Positions 2,855-46,699 of a DNA stretch of 64,000 nt are shown here, piece by piece. Position 1 is the first letter of the stretch, and each line of letters begins with the position of its first letter. The stretch lies in the sequence record NC_101842.1; one strand, given 5' to 3'. The notes beneath the pieces are model-generated. The model was not told the DNA's origin and did no database searches. It saw only the letters and a program-made list of their open reading frames with translations. Source of the DNA: a phage. A program made the translations under genes and the position numbers.

Positions 2855-4064
2855 CTCTTCAGGTCTGTGTGGGAAAAGCCAACCTCTCCGGCGGGGCATG
2901 GGGTCATGACGGGAAAATTGCAGGTCAATTAAAAAATTTACGTGGTGTATGAAGCGCTCTTCAGGTAAGGCATGTATTATGGGATGAAACCCTCTTCAGG
3001 CAATGATATTTGTGGGTGTGATATTTGCTGGAAAGCCAGATATGACGGGACTCCCGGCGGGGCAGGGGTAGTACAGACAGGGAAAATATGGAGGATGTGG
3101 TTGGGTAAATTGATCAGGCAGGTAGAGTATGGAATATGTTACAGGTATGTTAAATAGGGAGGCTGAATATCTGTAGGATTTGTGTGTAAAATCAAAGACT
3201 TAAGTGGTGTTGTGGTATTTTCTATAAATAATTCAAGTTTAATAGGTAATATTTGTCTCTATTCGCTTTGTGTGGTAAACAGATTCAGATGAGATTGGTT
3301 TACAAGTGTATACATAATATACAAATTAAAGATACAAGAAACCCCCCTCCCCCTTCGGCTACCATTCACCTTTTCCTCTGACTGGTACTTAAACACTTAT
3401 TCAGACTCTTCAGGTTATCACCCATATATCATATGGCAGTGACTGGTGTCCTCCGGCCCCTCTTTCGTCACCCGTCCGCTTCGCCATGCTAATGCCATAG
3501 CCAATGGTTCGGTTGTTCACCCTGCTCACTCAGGTGTATCTCCATACCCCTTCAAACCGAAGAGAACAGAAAACCCGAATTACTCGGTAAAAGAAAAGAG
3601 AAGAACTTAATTTTATCAGGATAGGCAAGAATGTCAAGGCATGACTGCTCACTAAACAAGCAAACAGTCATGTGTGGGAGGTAAGTGATTGTGGTGGTGG
3701 GAAATTTAGTTGAAAGATGTGCTACAGGTGCGCTTCCAGCACTTTAGCAGGGCAGCTAATTGTGTGTCAGTCCAGCGGTTCATCCTCTACTTCACTGAAA
3801 TCAATGTTCATGGTCTCTTCCCAACCATCGATCTCAGCACAAGAGTGGAGTTCTTTAGGACTTACTCCCAAAGCATCAGCAACAGAGTCCATATTTAACA
3901 CCTCTGGCAGGTATGATTCATCGAATTCAAGGTAAATCAGGCCACGAGTGTTGTCAGCTCCACCAAATATTTCTATCTTCATGAAATCTCCTCTGGAAAT
4001 GAGAGTGTGAACAGGGTTTTATACGTTCCGATGCACAGGAATTATGCACGTTTGCCTCTTCAGG
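2855..4064. repeat. dispersed 9-mer CTCTTCAGG (5 copies) plus duplicated CCGGCGGGGCA(T)GGGG block
   Basis: CTCTTCAGG at 2855, 2957, 2992, 3406, 4056; ccggcggggcatgggg at about 2886 and ccggcggggcagggg at about 3052. Confidence 0.65.
3767..3982 (-). CDS. hypothetical small acidic protein (71 aa)
   Basis: ORF track; N-terminus MKIEIFGG resembles other MK(I/V)E(I/L) small proteins in the array. Confidence 0.4.
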   Translation of the reverse strand: MKIEIFGGADNTRGLIYLEFDESYLPEVLNMDSVADALGVSPKELHSCAEIDGWEETMNIDFSEVEDEPLD

Positions 4065-45799: not shown

Positions 45800-45828
45800 T
45801 TGACAAACTTTGCTTAACAGTGTAATAT
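45800..45828 (+). promoter_or_regulatory. sigma70-like promoter TTGACA-17-TAATAT upstream of tRNA cluster
   Basis: consensus -35, 17-nt spacer, TG immediately before -10. Confidence 0.6.
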
Positions 45829-45886: not shown

Positions 45887-45961
45887 GCCCTGTTAGCTTA
45901 GTGGATAAAGCAGCGGCCTTCTAAGCCGTTGACACTGGTTCGAGTCCAGTACGGGGTGCCA
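45887..45961 (+). tRNA. tRNA-Arg (anticodon TCT)
   Basis: hand-folded cloverleaf: acceptor gccctgt/acggggt, anticodon loop cttctaa, T-loop ttcgagt, encoded CCA. Confidence 0.7.
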
Positions 45962-45965
45962 AATT

Positions 45966-46052
45966 GGGGAGTTATCCCGTAGGGGTAGCGGTGTAGACTG
46001 TAAATCTATTGTCATTGCGACTCGGGTGGTTCGACTCCACCACTCCCCACCA
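45966..46052 (+). tRNA. tRNA-Tyr (anticodon GTA), long variable arm
   Basis: acceptor ggggagt/actcccc, anticodon loop ctgtaaa, T-loop ttcgact, encoded CCA. Confidence 0.75.
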
Positions 46053-46166
46053 AATTTATAGTTTTAAATGCATAAATCATACAGATAATGGCATTGATAT
46101 TTATCGTCGTTTATACTAGTCACTAACTGCTCGAAAATCAGTGTCATTATTAGTATTGTTTATAAA

Positions 46167-46257
46167 TGAGGGTAGGGAGCAATGGTGCTCAAGCGGTCTT
46201 GAAAACCGTCCCGTTGAGGATGACTTGATGATGGTTCGATTCCATTACCCTCAGCCA
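46167..46257 (+). tRNA. tRNA-Ser (anticodon TGA), long variable arm
   Basis: acceptor tgagggt/accctca, 3-bp D stem, anticodon loop cttgaaa, T-loop ttcgatt, discriminator G, encoded CCA. Confidence 0.65.
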
Positions 46258-46355
46258 TATTGTTGACCTTGTAATTAAGCGAAAGCCGGAAGCAGAACCG
46301 GATTATCAAATGTTACAGTCGTCATCGCCGACTAGCAACATGGTCAACATACTGA

Positions 46356-46452
46356 GCTAGGTAAGCCCTTTGGCAAGGGCGAGGATTTTTAATCCTGAAA
46401 ATAGACGAGGTAGTCGTTGAATACATAGGTGGTTCGATTCCATCACCTAGCA
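46356..46452 (+). tRNA. atypical tRNA-like element (97 nt)
   Basis: perfect 7-bp acceptor gctaggt/acctagc, canonical T-arm, D-arm-like hairpin, but irregular anticodon arm and about 29-nt variable region; no CCA. Confidence 0.4.
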
Positions 46453-46459
46453 CCTTTTT

Positions 46460-46535
46460 GCTGATGTAGCACAATTGGTAGTGCAATTGATTTGTAATCA
46501 ATAGGTTGCAGGTTCAAGTCCTGCCATCAGCACCA
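46460..46535 (+). tRNA. tRNA-Thr (anticodon TGT)
   Basis: acceptor gctgatg/catcagc, anticodon loop tttgtaa, T-loop ttcaagt, encoded CCA. Confidence 0.75.
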
Positions 46536-46536
46536 T

Positions 46537-46611
46537 GGCCCTGTAGCTGGAAGGTTCAAGCAAGCGACTCATAATCGCCAGACGGTGGTTCAATTCCACC
46601 CAGGGCCACCA
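46537..46611 (+). tRNA. tRNA-Met or tRNA-Ile2 (anticodon CAT), elongator type
   Basis: acceptor ggccctg/cagggcc with G1-C72, anticodon loop ctcataa, T-loop ttcaatt, encoded CCA. Confidence 0.65.
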
Positions 46612-46622
46612 AATAATAAATA

Positions 46623-46699
46623 CTCCGCGTAGCTCAGCTTGGTAGAGCGCCTGATTTGGGATCAGGAGGTCGAGTGTTCGAATCACTCCGTGGAGACCA
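46623..46699 (+). tRNA. tRNA-Pro (anticodon TGG)
   Basis: C1-G72 start, D-loop agcttggta, anticodon loop tttggga, T-loop ttcgaat, encoded CCA. Confidence 0.75.

What the first reader, a model, noticed from the sequence alone, without database searches (positions are those of the whole stretch)
46356..46452. Atypical 97-nt tRNA-like element inside the tRNA cluster
It has a perfect 7-bp acceptor stem and a canonical T-arm, but the anticodon region folds irregularly (4-bp stem with TTTTTAA loop, or 5-bp stem with a 5-nt loop) and the variable region is about 29 nt, with no CCA. It could be an unusual functional tRNA (anticodon TTT would read Lys), a suppressor-like tRNA, a tRNA-derived regulatory RNA, or a pseudogene.
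Basis: seen in the sequence. Interest (0 to 1): 0.5.

Follow-up and report, generated by a model that had tools for sequence, protein, structure and literature searches.

The report
Conserved phage tRNA-shaped RNA, probably non-decoding
This odd "tRNA" is a real RNA gene kept in tRNA shape by selection in more than 150 phage genomes, but its anticodon arm is too short and too variable for a normal tRNA, so it probably acts as a tRNA mimic of unknown purpose.

Summary
Window 46356-46452 (+) folds into a five-arm cloverleaf with a perfect 7-bp acceptor stem and a canonical T arm, a short "anticodon" hairpin, a 31-nt extra region and no CCA. The window is an rV5-like Vequintavirus.

It is not a decaying pseudogene. 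Homologues occur across Vequintavirinae (named genera Vequintavirus, Avunavirus, Seunavirus, Mydovirus and Henunavirus), in phi92-like Justusliebigvirus and in one N4-like Salmonella phage. They always sit inside tRNA arrays. None was found in 185,579 bacterial species genomes.

- **Structure is under selection.** 97.5-99.5% of pair cells are standard pairs, and 10-11 pairs carry compensatory changes. One of these is the tertiary G19:C56 pair, which switches to U19:A56.
- **The anticodon-like arm is abnormal.** It is 15-16 nt instead of 17, with loops of 5-7 nt. U33 is absent outside the rV5/Av-05 clade and one metagenomic variant, and there is no shared anticodon.
- **The extra arm is swappable** between lineages, but its A-rich tethers are conserved.

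The best reading is a processed, L-shaped tRNA mimic that does not decode. A role as a decoy for a tRNA-directed host enzyme is inference only. The main rival applies to the rV5 lineage alone: its UUUUUAA loop and A73 could make it a nuclease-resistant tRNA-Lys. No Rfam family or paper describing this RNA was found.

The parts
45800..45828 (+). Promoter-like site (TTGACA, 17 nt, TAATAT) upstream of the tRNA array. Likely start of the transcript that carries the element.
   Evidence: Consensus scan, (10 of 12 matches). This is a consensus match only; function is inferred.
45887..46699 (+). tRNA array that contains the element, in this order: Arg-tct, Tyr-gta, Ser-tga, the element, Thr-tgt, Met-cat, Pro-tgg.
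   Evidence: ARAGORN; Rfam.
46356..46362 (+). Acceptor stem, 5' strand (GCTAGGT). Pairs with 46445-46451.
   Evidence: The 7 pairs are 100% paired in 28 homologues, and pairs 3, 4 and 5 show compensatory changes.
46365..46380 (+). D arm GCCC-TTTGGCAA-GGGC. The minimum-energy fold draws it as a 6-bp stem with a 4-nt UGGC loop. It contains the G18 G19 equivalent at 46372-46373.
   Evidence: Three of the 4 core pairs covary. Loop G19 covaries with T-loop C56 (GC in 10 sequences, UA in 9).
46382..46396 (+). Anticodon-like hairpin AGGATTTTTAATCCT, 15 nt against 17 in a tRNA. It can be read as a 5-bp stem with loop UUUUA, or as a 4-bp stem with loop UUUUUAA. It is flanked by G46381 and G46397.
   Evidence: The fifth pair is C-G in 14 sequences, U-A in 3 and non-standard in 2 (MAFFT alignment). 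Loop sequence and length differ between lineages.
46398..46403 (+). Conserved A-rich 5' tether (AAAATA) between the anticodon-like stem and the extra arm.
   Evidence: Three A columns are invariant in 27 aligned sequences.
46404..46418 (+). Extra (variable) arm hairpin GACGA-GGTAG-TCGTT.
   Evidence: Av-05 has GACGG-GCTAG-CCGTT, a compensatory A-U to G-C change. In other lineages it is replaced by unrelated hairpins.
46419..46427 (+). Conserved 3' tether (GAATACATA) between the extra arm and the T stem.
   Evidence: ATAC is invariant. ATACATAGG is present in all but the Justusliebigvirus copies, which have AAATACGAAA.
46428..46444 (+). T arm GGTGG-TTCGATT-CCATC, with canonical T54 T55 C56 R57 A58.
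   Evidence: Pair 51-63 is U-A or C-G. Pair 50-64 is G.U, G-C or A-U.
46445..46452 (+). Acceptor stem 3' strand (ACCTAGC) plus discriminator A.
   Evidence: The discriminator is A in rV5-like copies, U or C in the Av-05 clade and U in all other lineages.
46453..46459 (+). 3' trailer CC-TTTTT up to the first base of tRNA-Thr. It encodes CC but not the final A. Flagged as terminator-like together with the T arm and acceptor hairpin.

Best explanation
The element is a genuine, selected RNA gene. It is the rV5-lineage version of a phage-specific family of tRNA-shaped RNAs that has no family or description in any source searched here.

**Shown**
- It lies in the tRNA array.
- Outside Vequintavirus, it starts 1-5 nt after the preceding tRNA.
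- It folds into an L-shape-compatible cloverleaf: acceptor, D arm, T arm and the D-loop/T-loop G19:C56 contact, all kept by compensatory change.
- Its anticodon-like arm is one layer short, with a 5-7-nt loop. U33 is absent outside the rV5/Av-05 clade and one metagenomic variant, and no anticodon is shared.
- It carries an extra hairpin, swappable between lineages, on conserved A-rich tethers.

**Inferred**
- It is co-transcribed with the tRNAs.
- RNase P cuts its 5' end, and its 3' end is trimmed and completed to CCA. Most lineages encode U73-CCA.
- It then acts as a tRNA mimic rather than as a decoder. It would present the acceptor end, elbow and core to a tRNA-binding factor, while the shortened anticodon arm keeps it from decoding on the ribosome.

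**My committed guess, which is speculative:** the partner is a host tRNA-directed enzyme, most likely a defence tRNase, which the RNA occupies or diverts.

Approximate confidence for each step:
- real, structured, selected RNA: 0.97
- non-decoding across the family: 0.65
- decoy of a host tRNA-directed enzyme: 0.25
For: **Structure**
- MAFFT alignment of 19 distinct homologues: 99.5% of pair cells are standard pairs, 11 of 22 pairs have changes on both sides, and the covariation score is 0.437 against 0.161 for shuffles (0 of 500 reach it). Controls with partners slid by 1-3 columns give 0.00-0.09.
- Model-based alignment of 28 homologues: 97.5% paired, 10 of 20 pairs changed on both sides.
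- Tertiary pair G19:C56 is GC in 10 sequences and UA in 9.
- All 19 sequences fold by minimum free energy into the same five-arm cloverleaf.

**A distinct family**
- A covariance model gives members 87-120 bits. Canonical tRNAs score 28 or less and the V18 chimera 34.5. The window holds one copy.

**Distribution**
- Vequintavirinae genera, Justusliebigvirus and the N4-like Salmonella phage UTK0002.
- None of 24 pattern hits in bacterial genomes is real.

**Non-decoding**
- Arm length is 15-16 nt and the loops differ between lineages.
- ARAGORN does not call the element in the seven non-rV5 loci scanned.
- In the four non-rV5 loci scanned with Rfam it gave at most sub-threshold tRNA-Sec hits.

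**Accessory character**
- Two independent natural deletions, in V18 and in O157 typing phage 4.
- Horizontal spread between phage families.

**Purifying selection inside Vequintavirus**
- Substitutions are changes among G.U, G-C and A-U pairs, or lie in loops. The 16-nt leader changes faster.

**Context for the decoy idea**
- Phage tRNA arrays counter the tRNases PrrC, AriB, PtuAB and OLD (PMC11555353, PMC12445682).
- The AriB paper raises competition by viral tRNAs as a possibility (PMC12409363).
Against: - No expression, processing, CCA or binding data exist for this RNA.
- The partner is unknown. A decoy against enzymes that act on the abundant bulk tRNA pool would need high affinity or high copy number.
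- In the rV5/Av-05 clade, to which the window belongs, the 3' end is less conserved: the discriminator is A, U or C and there is no CCA. This weakens the argument from acceptor-end conservation for this particular copy.
- In that clade the loop has the canonical Y32-U33-NNN-A37-A38 signature, so decoding cannot be excluded.
- Functional phage tRNAs with a 27-43 mismatch, and hence a 4-bp anticodon stem, are documented (PMC12445682).
- Loop and extra-arm variability could be neutral drift rather than an arms race.
Confidence: 0.5

Rival explanations
1. In the rV5 lineage the element is a working tRNA-Lys(UUU). The loop UUUUUAA sits on a 4-bp stem capped by a G.G mismatch. LysRS would charge it through U34-U35-U36 and A73. 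Its odd anticodon stem and extra arm would make it resistant to Lys-tRNA-cleaving defences (PrrC, PARIS AriB), so it would replace destroyed host tRNA-Lys.
For: - The loop reads U32 U33 U34 U35 U36 A37 A38 and the discriminator is A.
- UUUUAAUC is identical to the E. coli tRNA-Lys loop plus the first two 3'-stem bases (sequence).
- BASEL and other GenBank records label it tRNA-Lys.
- The Rfam tRNA score is above the gathering score.
- rV5 has no other tRNA-Lys.
- The rest of the small array (Tyr-GUA, Thr-UGU) matches known tRNase targets (PMC11555353, PMC12445682).
- Functional phage tRNA-Thr with a 27-43 mismatch resists OLD.
Against: - The nearest relatives (Av-05, TH18, L080) have UUUAUAA with discriminator U or C and no CCA.
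- All other lineages have 5-7-nt loops, nearly all without U33.
- Position 26 would be missing.
- A 31-nt extra region on conserved tethers is foreign to tRNA-Lys.
- It is the only gene of the array without an encoded CCA.
- Justusliebigvirus carries both the element and a canonical tRNA-Lys.
Confidence: 0.25
2. It is charged but not used by the ribosome. In most lineages G1:C72, C2:G71 and U73-CCA resemble the E. coli glycine acceptor identity set, and loops hold UCC or GCC. The RNA would be aminoacylated and serve as a regulator or as an amino-acid donor outside translation, as proposed for B. cereus tRNA-Other.
For: - G1:C72 is kept in 26 of 28 sequences (G.U in two), C2:G71 in all 28, and U73-CCA in all lineages except the rV5/Av-05 clade and Justusliebigvirus, which keeps U73 but not CCA.
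- Phage and host tRNA-Gly share G1, C2 and U73.
- The loops CAUCCA and CUUCCA resemble the CUUCCAA loop of tRNA-Gly(UCC).
- The GlyRS identity rules are taken from prior knowledge, not tested here.
Against: - The third pair is not G3:C70.
- The window's own copy has A73, no CCA and no UCC.
- No phage enzyme that would use such a substrate is known.
- Nothing was tested experimentally.
Confidence: 0.1
3. It is a processing or punctuation element. A tRNA-shaped spacer would be kept only so that RNase P and 3' exonucleases cut the polycistronic transcript correctly. In rV5 the T arm and acceptor hairpin plus the U-run could act as an attenuator.
For: - Outside rV5 it begins 1-5 nt after the preceding tRNA and is often followed by long spacers or homing-endonuclease remnants.
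- A terminator-like hairpin with T-run is present in the window.
Against: - Any ordinary tRNA would do this job.
- Selection also keeps the D arm, the G19:C56 contact, the anticodon-like stem, the tethers and the extra arm. RNase P does not need these.
- The T-run is specific to rV5.
Confidence: 0.08
4. It is a recoding tRNA: an opal suppressor (UCA inside CAUCAAA) or a frameshift suppressor with an 8-nt loop.
For: - Henunavirus, UTK0002 and Justusliebigvirus loops read C-A-U-C-A-A-A, against CUUCAAA in tRNA-Sec.
- Seunavirus and Mydovirus copies can be drawn with the 8-nt loop CCAUCCAG.
- At least two GenBank records, one of them an rV5-like phage, call it tRNA-TERM.
Against: - Position 33 is A, not U.
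- The candidate anticodon changes between close relatives (UCC, UCA, GCC).
- The closing C-G pair makes the loop 6 nt.
- The window's copy has neither sequence.
- The tRNA-Sec model scores at most 37.6 bits against a gathering score of 47.
Confidence: 0.04
5. It is a decaying pseudogene of a class II tRNA.
For: - Low tRNA model score.
- Some records label it tRNA-Pseudo.
- It can be lost.
Against: - 97.5-99.5% pairing with 10-11 compensatory pairs, including a tertiary pair, across phage subfamilies.
- Conservation ends at the element's borders in Av-05.
Confidence: 0.02

Closest known systems
Phage T4 stable RNAs C and D (species 1 and 2; rnaC, rnaD)
   Same: - Small stable non-tRNA RNAs encoded at the end of a phage tRNA gene cluster.
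- rnaC has a tRNA-like T arm.
- From prior knowledge: they are processed with the tRNAs and their function is still unknown.
   Different: - No sequence or model similarity: the family covariance model finds no hit on them.
- They are 119 and 139 nt.
- The present family keeps a complete cloverleaf, including the D arm and elbow contact.
Canonical class II tRNAs (Leu, Ser, Tyr) and Rfam tRNA RF00005
   Same: - 7/5 acceptor and T branch.
- G18 G19 and T-loop contacts.
- A long extra arm.
- Location in a tRNA array.
- The window copy passes the Rfam gathering score.
   Different: - The anticodon arm is 15-16 nt with a 5-7-nt loop, nearly always without U33 outside the rV5/Av-05 clade.
- The extra arm is tethered by 6-9 conserved unpaired bases on each side.
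- The four non-rV5 homologues scanned gave no tRNA-model hit at E-value 0.1 or better, and the seven scanned with ARAGORN were not called.
tRNA-Sec (RF01852)
   Same: - Possible 6-bp D stem with a 4-nt loop.
- Long extra arm.
- The loop CAUCAAA in some lineages is one base from CUUCAAA.
   Different: - 7/5 rather than 8/5 branch.
- U73 or A73 rather than G73.
- A33.
- Scores of 27-37.6 bits against a gathering score of 47.
- The window copy has no UCA.
allo-tRNAs and other irregular tRNAs (Mukai et al. 2017, PMC5389517)
   Same: - Non-canonical cloverleaves, often missed by tRNA finders, some in phages.
- Proposed to be suppressors or regulatory RNAs.
   Different: allo-tRNAs are defined by 8/4 or 9/3 branches and serine identity, with normal anticodon loops. 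This family is 7/5 with a shortened anticodon arm.
Bacillus cereus tRNA-Other (PMC3399842)
   Same: A pseudo-tRNA that does not serve translation but has a cellular role. It is a precedent for a non-decoding tRNA-shaped RNA.
   Different: It is bacterial and chromosomal, and it was not compared with the element here. That it is charged by a LysRS1:LysRS2 complex is stated in PMC5389517.
Nuclease-resistant phage tRNAs (T5 tRNA-Lys, phage tRNA-Thr, tRNA-Tyr)
   Same: - Encoded in phage tRNA arrays.
- Altered anticodon stems, including a lost 27-43 pair.
- The window copy shares UUUUAAUC with host tRNA-Lys.
   Different: Those RNAs keep a 7-nt loop, a fixed anticodon and a normal variable loop, and were shown to decode. 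Here the anticodon is not conserved across the family.

Membership tests
Elongator tRNA (RF00005) | 7-bp acceptor stem, 5-bp T stem, T loop T54-T55-C56-R57-A58 | tested here: met
   100% paired in 28 homologues.
Elongator tRNA (RF00005) | D loop G18 G19 contacting the T loop (G19:C56) | tested here: met
   GC in 10 sequences, UA in 9: covariation of the tertiary pair.
Elongator tRNA (RF00005) | 5-bp anticodon stem with a 7-nt loop, U33 and a purine at 37 | tested here: not met
   The arm is 15-16 nt and the loops are 5-7 nt. Outside the rV5/Av-05 clade U33 is absent except in one metagenomic variant. In the window a 7-nt UUUUUAA loop is possible only with a 4-bp stem.
Elongator tRNA (RF00005) | Anticodon conserved among orthologues | tested here: not met
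   UUU, UAU, UCC, UCA, GCC or none, depending on lineage.
Elongator tRNA (RF00005) | Score at or above the Rfam gathering score (29 bits) | tested here: inconclusive
   The window copy scores 35.5 bits. The homologues in L004, L008, L010 and L012 gave no tRNA-model hit at E-value 0.1 or better; two gave sub-threshold tRNA-Sec hits and two gave no hit at all.
Elongator tRNA (RF00005) | Aminoacylation and use on the ribosome | not testable with these tools
   Needs tRNA sequencing, acid gels and reporter assays.
tRNA-Lys(UUU) | U34 U35 U36 plus A73 (E. coli LysRS identity, from prior knowledge) | tested here: inconclusive
   Present in the window copy if the 7-nt loop is assumed. Absent in the sister clade and in all other lineages.
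tRNA-Sec (RF01852) | 8/5 acceptor and T branch, G73, UCA anticodon, score at or above 47 bits | tested here: not met
   7/5 branch, A or U at 73, no UCA in the window. Best homologue score is 37.6 bits.
tRNA-Sec (RF01852) | 6-bp D stem with a 4-nt loop | tested here: inconclusive
   Predicted by minimum free energy in all homologues, but the two extra pairs (U14, U15 with the two A's at the 3' end of the D loop) never vary, so there is no covariation evidence.
tRNA pseudogene | Loss of pairing and no selective constraint | tested here: not met
T4 rnaC / rnaD | Sequence or structure homology | tested here: not met
   No hit of model R1 on L035.
allo-tRNA | 8/4 or 9/3 acceptor and T branch | tested here: not met
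   7/5 in all members.
Anti-defence tRNA decoy (proposed here; not an established family) | Binds or inhibits a host tRNA-directed defence enzyme, and its loss sensitises the phage | not testable with these tools
   Only indirect: accessory distribution, natural deletions and variable distal arms.

The most novel reading that the evidence does not exclude
Virulent enterobacterial phages of at least three lineages carry a dedicated, horizontally exchanged tRNA mimic. It would be an L-shaped, CCA-ended RNA that cannot decode. Its job would be to trap or mislead a host tRNA-targeting immune nuclease or another tRNA-sensing factor. Its rapidly changing anticodon-like loop and swappable extra arm would be the specificity modules. 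That would make it an RNA-based anti-defence factor hidden inside tRNA arrays.
Probability: 0.22. Interest if true: 0.85.

Novelty: new variant of a known kind. Interest (0 to 1): 0.58.

Why it matters
Phage tRNA arrays are now read mainly as counter-measures to tRNA-cleaving immunity, and every member is assumed to be a decoder. This family shows that the arrays also hold a strongly selected tRNA-shaped RNA that standard finders either miss or mislabel. GenBank records call it tRNA-Lys, tRNA-OTHER, tRNA-TERM, tRNA-Pseudo or a small "hypothetical protein".

If it does not decode, it is a new handle on what else a tRNA shape can do during infection, whether as a decoy, a sensor blocker or a non-ribosomal aminoacyl carrier. 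It would also be a modern, tractable counterpart to the T4 RNAs C and D, whose function is still unknown.

If instead the rV5 copy is a working tRNA-Lys, it would show how far a tRNA body can be remodelled and still function. Either way, annotation of well over 150 phage genomes should be corrected, and the family deserves a covariance model.

Tried and rejected
- **Pseudogene:** rejected by covariation.
- **ARAGORN's fold with a 4-base anticodon 'atcc':** it relies on an ATTTT/AAAAT stem that does not exist in other lineages.
- **The extra arm as the real anticodon arm:** candidate anticodons GTA or CTA appear in rV5 and Av-05 only, there is no U33, and the arm is not conserved.
- **Homology to T4 rnaC/rnaD:** none.
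- **Bacterial origin or a host copy:** all 24 pattern hits in 185,579 species genomes are chance matches.
- **Primer-binding-site-like complement of the 3' end in the window:** none apart from the gene itself.
- **Protein-coding reading:** only short unconserved ORFs overlap the element, and the substitutions are compensatory in stems.
- **Further lineages in the viral collection:** two extra pattern scans found nothing new.
- **Literature:**
  - The rV5 genome paper lists six tRNAs and does not mention the element.
  - Searches for tRNA-like RNAs, Vequintavirinae and decoys found no description.
  - The supplements that could show whether the rV5 'tRNA-Lys' was tested against AriB or PrrC are not held.
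- **Y RNA, tmRNA and other Rfam families:** no hit on the element.
Full report
**1. What is in the window**

Positions 46356-46452 (+) lie inside a seven-gene tRNA array at 45887-46699. The order is Arg-tct, Tyr-gta, Ser-tga, the element, Thr-tgt, Met-cat, Pro-tgg. A strong promoter-like site sits upstream at 45800-45828.

The sequence reads as follows:
- GCTAGGT (acceptor 5' strand), then AA
- GCCC-TTTGGCAA-GGGC (D arm), then G
- AGGATTTTTAATCCT (anticodon-like hairpin), then G
- AAAATA (5' tether)
- GACGA-GGTAG-TCGTT (extra arm)
- GAATACATA (3' tether)
- GGTGG-TTCGATT-CCATC (T arm)
- ACCTAGC (acceptor 3' strand), then A, then CC-TTTTT

- ARAGORN reports 'tRNA-??? (atcc)'.
- The Rfam tRNA model gives 35.5 bits against a gathering score of 29, with a 26-nt insertion and a broken 27-43 pair.
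- The minimum-energy fold is a five-arm cloverleaf with z = -4.09.
- The six canonical tRNAs of the array all encode CCA. The element encodes only CC.

**2. Source and annotation history**

The window is 99.9% identical to rV5-like Vequintavirus phages of E. coli. GenBank records label the element tRNA-OTHER, tRNA-Lys, tRNA-TERM, tRNA-Pseudo or tRNA-???(atcc), or leave it unannotated. The rV5 genome paper lists six tRNAs and does not mention it (PMC3606486).

**3. Homologues**

BLAST and pattern scans recovered the element in these groups:
- Vequintavirus: 113 records cover at least 80% of the query.
- Avunavirus: Av-05, plus the Av-05-like phage TH18, which has no genus assigned. The similarity stops at the element's borders.
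- Seunavirus: PVP-SE1, SSE121, 4MG, GAP31, FENT2, NINP13076 and others.
- Mydovirus: Mydo, KPP-1, VIK251, DP, Ro1.
- Henunavirus: Erwinia phages.
- Justusliebigvirus, the phi92-like group within Stephanstirmvirinae.
- One N4-like Schitoviridae phage, Salmonella phage UTK0002.
- Metagenomic contigs.

In total, 181 GenBank phage records matched the Seunavirus query, and the Justusliebigvirus and UTK0002 records come in addition.

The same pattern gave 24 hits in 185,579 bacterial species genomes. All are chance matches without an acceptor stem or T loop, and all score 20 bits or less with the family model.

The element always lies in a tRNA array. Outside rV5 it starts 1-5 nt after the preceding tRNA. 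ARAGORN did not call it in any of the seven non-rV5 loci scanned. In the four non-rV5 loci scanned with Rfam it gave at most sub-threshold tRNA-Sec hits of 27-37.6 bits.

**4. Structure is under selection**

On a MAFFT alignment of 19 distinct sequences:
- 99.5% of pair cells are standard pairs.
- 11 of 22 pairs carry changes on both sides.
- The covariation score is 0.437, against 0.161 for shuffles (0 of 500 reach it) and 0.00-0.09 for slid partners.

On a model-based alignment of 28 sequences the figures are 97.5% paired and 10 of 20 pairs changed on both sides.

The tertiary Watson-Crick pair G19:C56 switches to U19:A56. D loop TTTGGCAA goes with T loop TTCGATT, and D loop TTTGTCAA goes with T loop TTAGATT (GC in 10 sequences, UA in 9). 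This argues for a true L-shape.

Within Vequintavirus the few substitutions are changes among G.U, G-C and A-U pairs, or lie in loops. The 16-nt leader changes faster.

A covariance model separates the family (87-120 bits) from canonical tRNAs (28 bits or less). It finds one copy in the window and nothing in T4 rnaC or rnaD. The pseudogene reading is therefore rejected.

**5. What is not tRNA-like**

(a) The anticodon-like arm has 15-16 nt instead of 17. Flanked by G and G, it reads:
- AGGAU-UUUUA-AUCCU in rV5
- AGGAU-UUAUA-AUCCU in Av-05 and TH18
- AGGUC-CAUCCA-GACCU in most Seunavirus and Mydovirus copies, with loop variants CUUCCA, CCUCAA, CCUCCA and CAGCCA
- GGGC-CAUCAAA-GCCC in Henunavirus and UTK0002, and AGGC-CAUCAAA-GCCU in Justusliebigvirus
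- GGGC-AAUCAAG-GCCC and AGGG-GUGAUA-CCCU in metagenomes

The fifth pair covaries: C-G in 14 sequences, U-A in 3. Outside the rV5/Av-05 clade the loop core is CAUCMA, with A where a tRNA has U33, apart from one metagenomic variant with CUUCCA. The E. coli loops CUUCCAA (Gly-UCC) and CUUCAAA (Sec) differ from these by that one base. No anticodon is shared across lineages.

(b) The extra arm is tethered by conserved unpaired stretches: G-AAAA(A)UA on the 5' side and (N)AAUACAUA on the 3' side, which is AAAUACGAAA in Justusliebigvirus.

(c) The arm itself comes in unrelated versions:
- GC-rich hairpins with an apical GYGUGGAGU motif
- a type with the conserved apex GAACUAACAGUA
- a Justusliebigvirus type
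- the rV5 type

These versions are distributed as a mosaic across genera. Homing-endonuclease remnants lie next to the element in some phages, and recombination around them may drive this mosaic. That link is inference.

(d) The D arm can form 6 bp with a 4-nt loop, as in tRNA-Sec. The two extra pairs never vary, so this is untested.

**6. The acceptor end**

All lineages outside the rV5/Av-05 clade have U73, and all of these but Justusliebigvirus encode CCA. G1:C72 is kept in 26 of 28 sequences and C2:G71 in all 28. These features match the glycine acceptor set of E. coli as I know it, and the phage and host tRNA-Gly sequences.

In the rV5/Av-05 clade the discriminator is A, U or C, and CCA is replaced by CC-U5 or ACA. 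The 3' end is therefore less constrained in the very lineage of the window.

**7. Dispensability**

V18 and O157 typing phage 4 carry independent deletions that remove tRNA-Ser and the element. In typing phage 4 the breakpoint lies in the similar T arms of tRNA-Tyr and the element. The element is therefore accessory under laboratory conditions.

**8. Interpretation**

What is shown: this is a selected, tRNA-shaped RNA family restricted to phage tRNA arrays and exchanged between phage families.

What is inferred: it is co-transcribed, cut by RNase P at the 5' end and completed to CCA at the 3' end.

The shortened, variable anticodon-like arm argues against decoding across the family (about 0.65). 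The parts under the strongest constraint are the acceptor end, elbow, core and tethers. These are the parts read by tRNA-binding proteins rather than by the ribosome's decoding centre.

I therefore favour a tRNA mimic. I commit, with low absolute confidence (about 0.25), to a decoy or competitor of a host tRNA-directed enzyme such as a defence tRNase. The supports for that are all indirect:
- the accessory, horizontally mobile distribution;
- the variability of exactly the regions such nucleases recognise;
- the current evidence that phage tRNA arrays counter PrrC, PARIS, retron Eco7 and P2 Old (PMC11555353, PMC12445682, PMC12409363).

**9. Main rival for the window's own copy**

With a 4-bp stem the rV5 loop is U32-U33-UUU-A37-A38 and the discriminator is A73, which is the tRNA-Lys signature. 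The stretch UUUUAAUC equals host tRNA-Lys. rV5 has no other tRNA-Lys. Functional phage tRNAs that have lost the 27-43 pair are known.

Against it:
- The sister clade has UAU with U73 or C73.
- Position 26 would be missing.
- The long tethered arm is foreign to tRNA-Lys.
- CCA is missing.
- Justusliebigvirus keeps both the element and a canonical tRNA-Lys.

I give this rival about 0.25. Other rivals (charged non-ribosomal carrier, processing spacer, suppressor, pseudogene) are scored in the report sections.

**10. Novelty**

No Rfam family and no paper in the library describes this RNA. Conceptually it is closest to the T4 stable RNAs C and D, to irregular tRNAs such as allo-tRNAs, and to B. 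cereus tRNA-Other. It fails the defining tests of each. I class it as a new variant of a known kind: non-canonical tRNA-like RNAs in phage tRNA clusters.

Noticed in passing
L001:1798-1883 (Escherichia phage Av-05): A second odd tRNA-like gene: acceptor GGCGGTG/CACCGTC, loop CUUCUAA (Arg-UCU), canonical T loop, ACCA end, and no normal D arm. ARAGORN does not call it. It gives a sub-threshold tRNA-Sec hit of 29.6 bits.
   Followed up: partly
L004:927-1002, L007:927-999, L012:928-1002, L014:928-1002: The tRNA directly upstream of the element in Seunavirus and Mydovirus also has a non-canonical anticodon loop. It reads AAGAUUC or ACGAUUC (no U33, U at 37), and Mydo and VIK251 have the 6-nt loop ACGAUA (ARAGORN: 'tRNA-??? 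(ga)'). GenBank calls it tRNA-Ile or tRNA-Ser. These arrays may therefore hold several tRNA genes with abnormal anticodon loops.
   Followed up: partly
L031:437-522 (Salmonella phage vB_SenP_UTK0002): An unannotated tRNA-Ser(tga) with an 8-bp acceptor stem, GGAAGATT/AATCTTCC-G-CCA. This closely resembles the E. coli selC acceptor GGAAGATC and fits the phage (8/4) tRNA-Ser class of Mukai et al.
   Followed up: partly
L003:1477-1543 (phage V18) and L119:about 850-928 (O157 typing phage 4): Natural deletions that remove tRNA-Ser and the element and leave chimeric genes. In typing phage 4 the breakpoint lies in the similar T arms of tRNA-Tyr and the element.
   Followed up: yes
L002:about 3040-3290 and L030:728-900: Downstream of the element in GE_vB_MG there is an HNH-endonuclease-like reading frame with frameshifts, in an 'UNVERIFIED' record. 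A stretch of about 170 nt starting GTGCATTAGCTCAG follows the element in GAP31 and GE_vB_MG; its opening bases also follow it in 4MG, NINP13076, LNA4 and CspD17. This may be an interrupted tRNA or another structured RNA.
   Followed up: no
GenBank MG0656xx records: Eighteen 'Campylobacter phage' records match the element region, and those listed are 98-100% identical to E. coli rV5-like phages there. The host label looks doubtful.
   Followed up: no
window 46537-46609 and 46460-46533, minus strand: Rfam 'Plastid-ycf2 5'UTR' hits (41.3 and 25.3 bits, below the gathering score) fall on the antisense strand of tRNA-Met and tRNA-Thr. The same family also hit the antisense strand of tRNA genes in the related loci scanned, so these look like model artefacts rather than features.
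   Followed up: partly
window 45887-46699: The small rV5 tRNA set (Tyr-GUA, Thr-UGU, Pro-UGG and the Lys-like element) overlaps the published targets of retron Eco7 PtuAB, P2 Old, PARIS AriB and PrrC. This is consistent with an anti-nuclease role for the whole array.
   Followed up: partly
window 46455-46459: In rV5 only, a run of five T directly after the element, together with the T arm and acceptor hairpin, matches the simple terminator pattern. tRNA-Thr, tRNA-Met and tRNA-Pro lie immediately downstream with no promoter between them.
   Followed up: no
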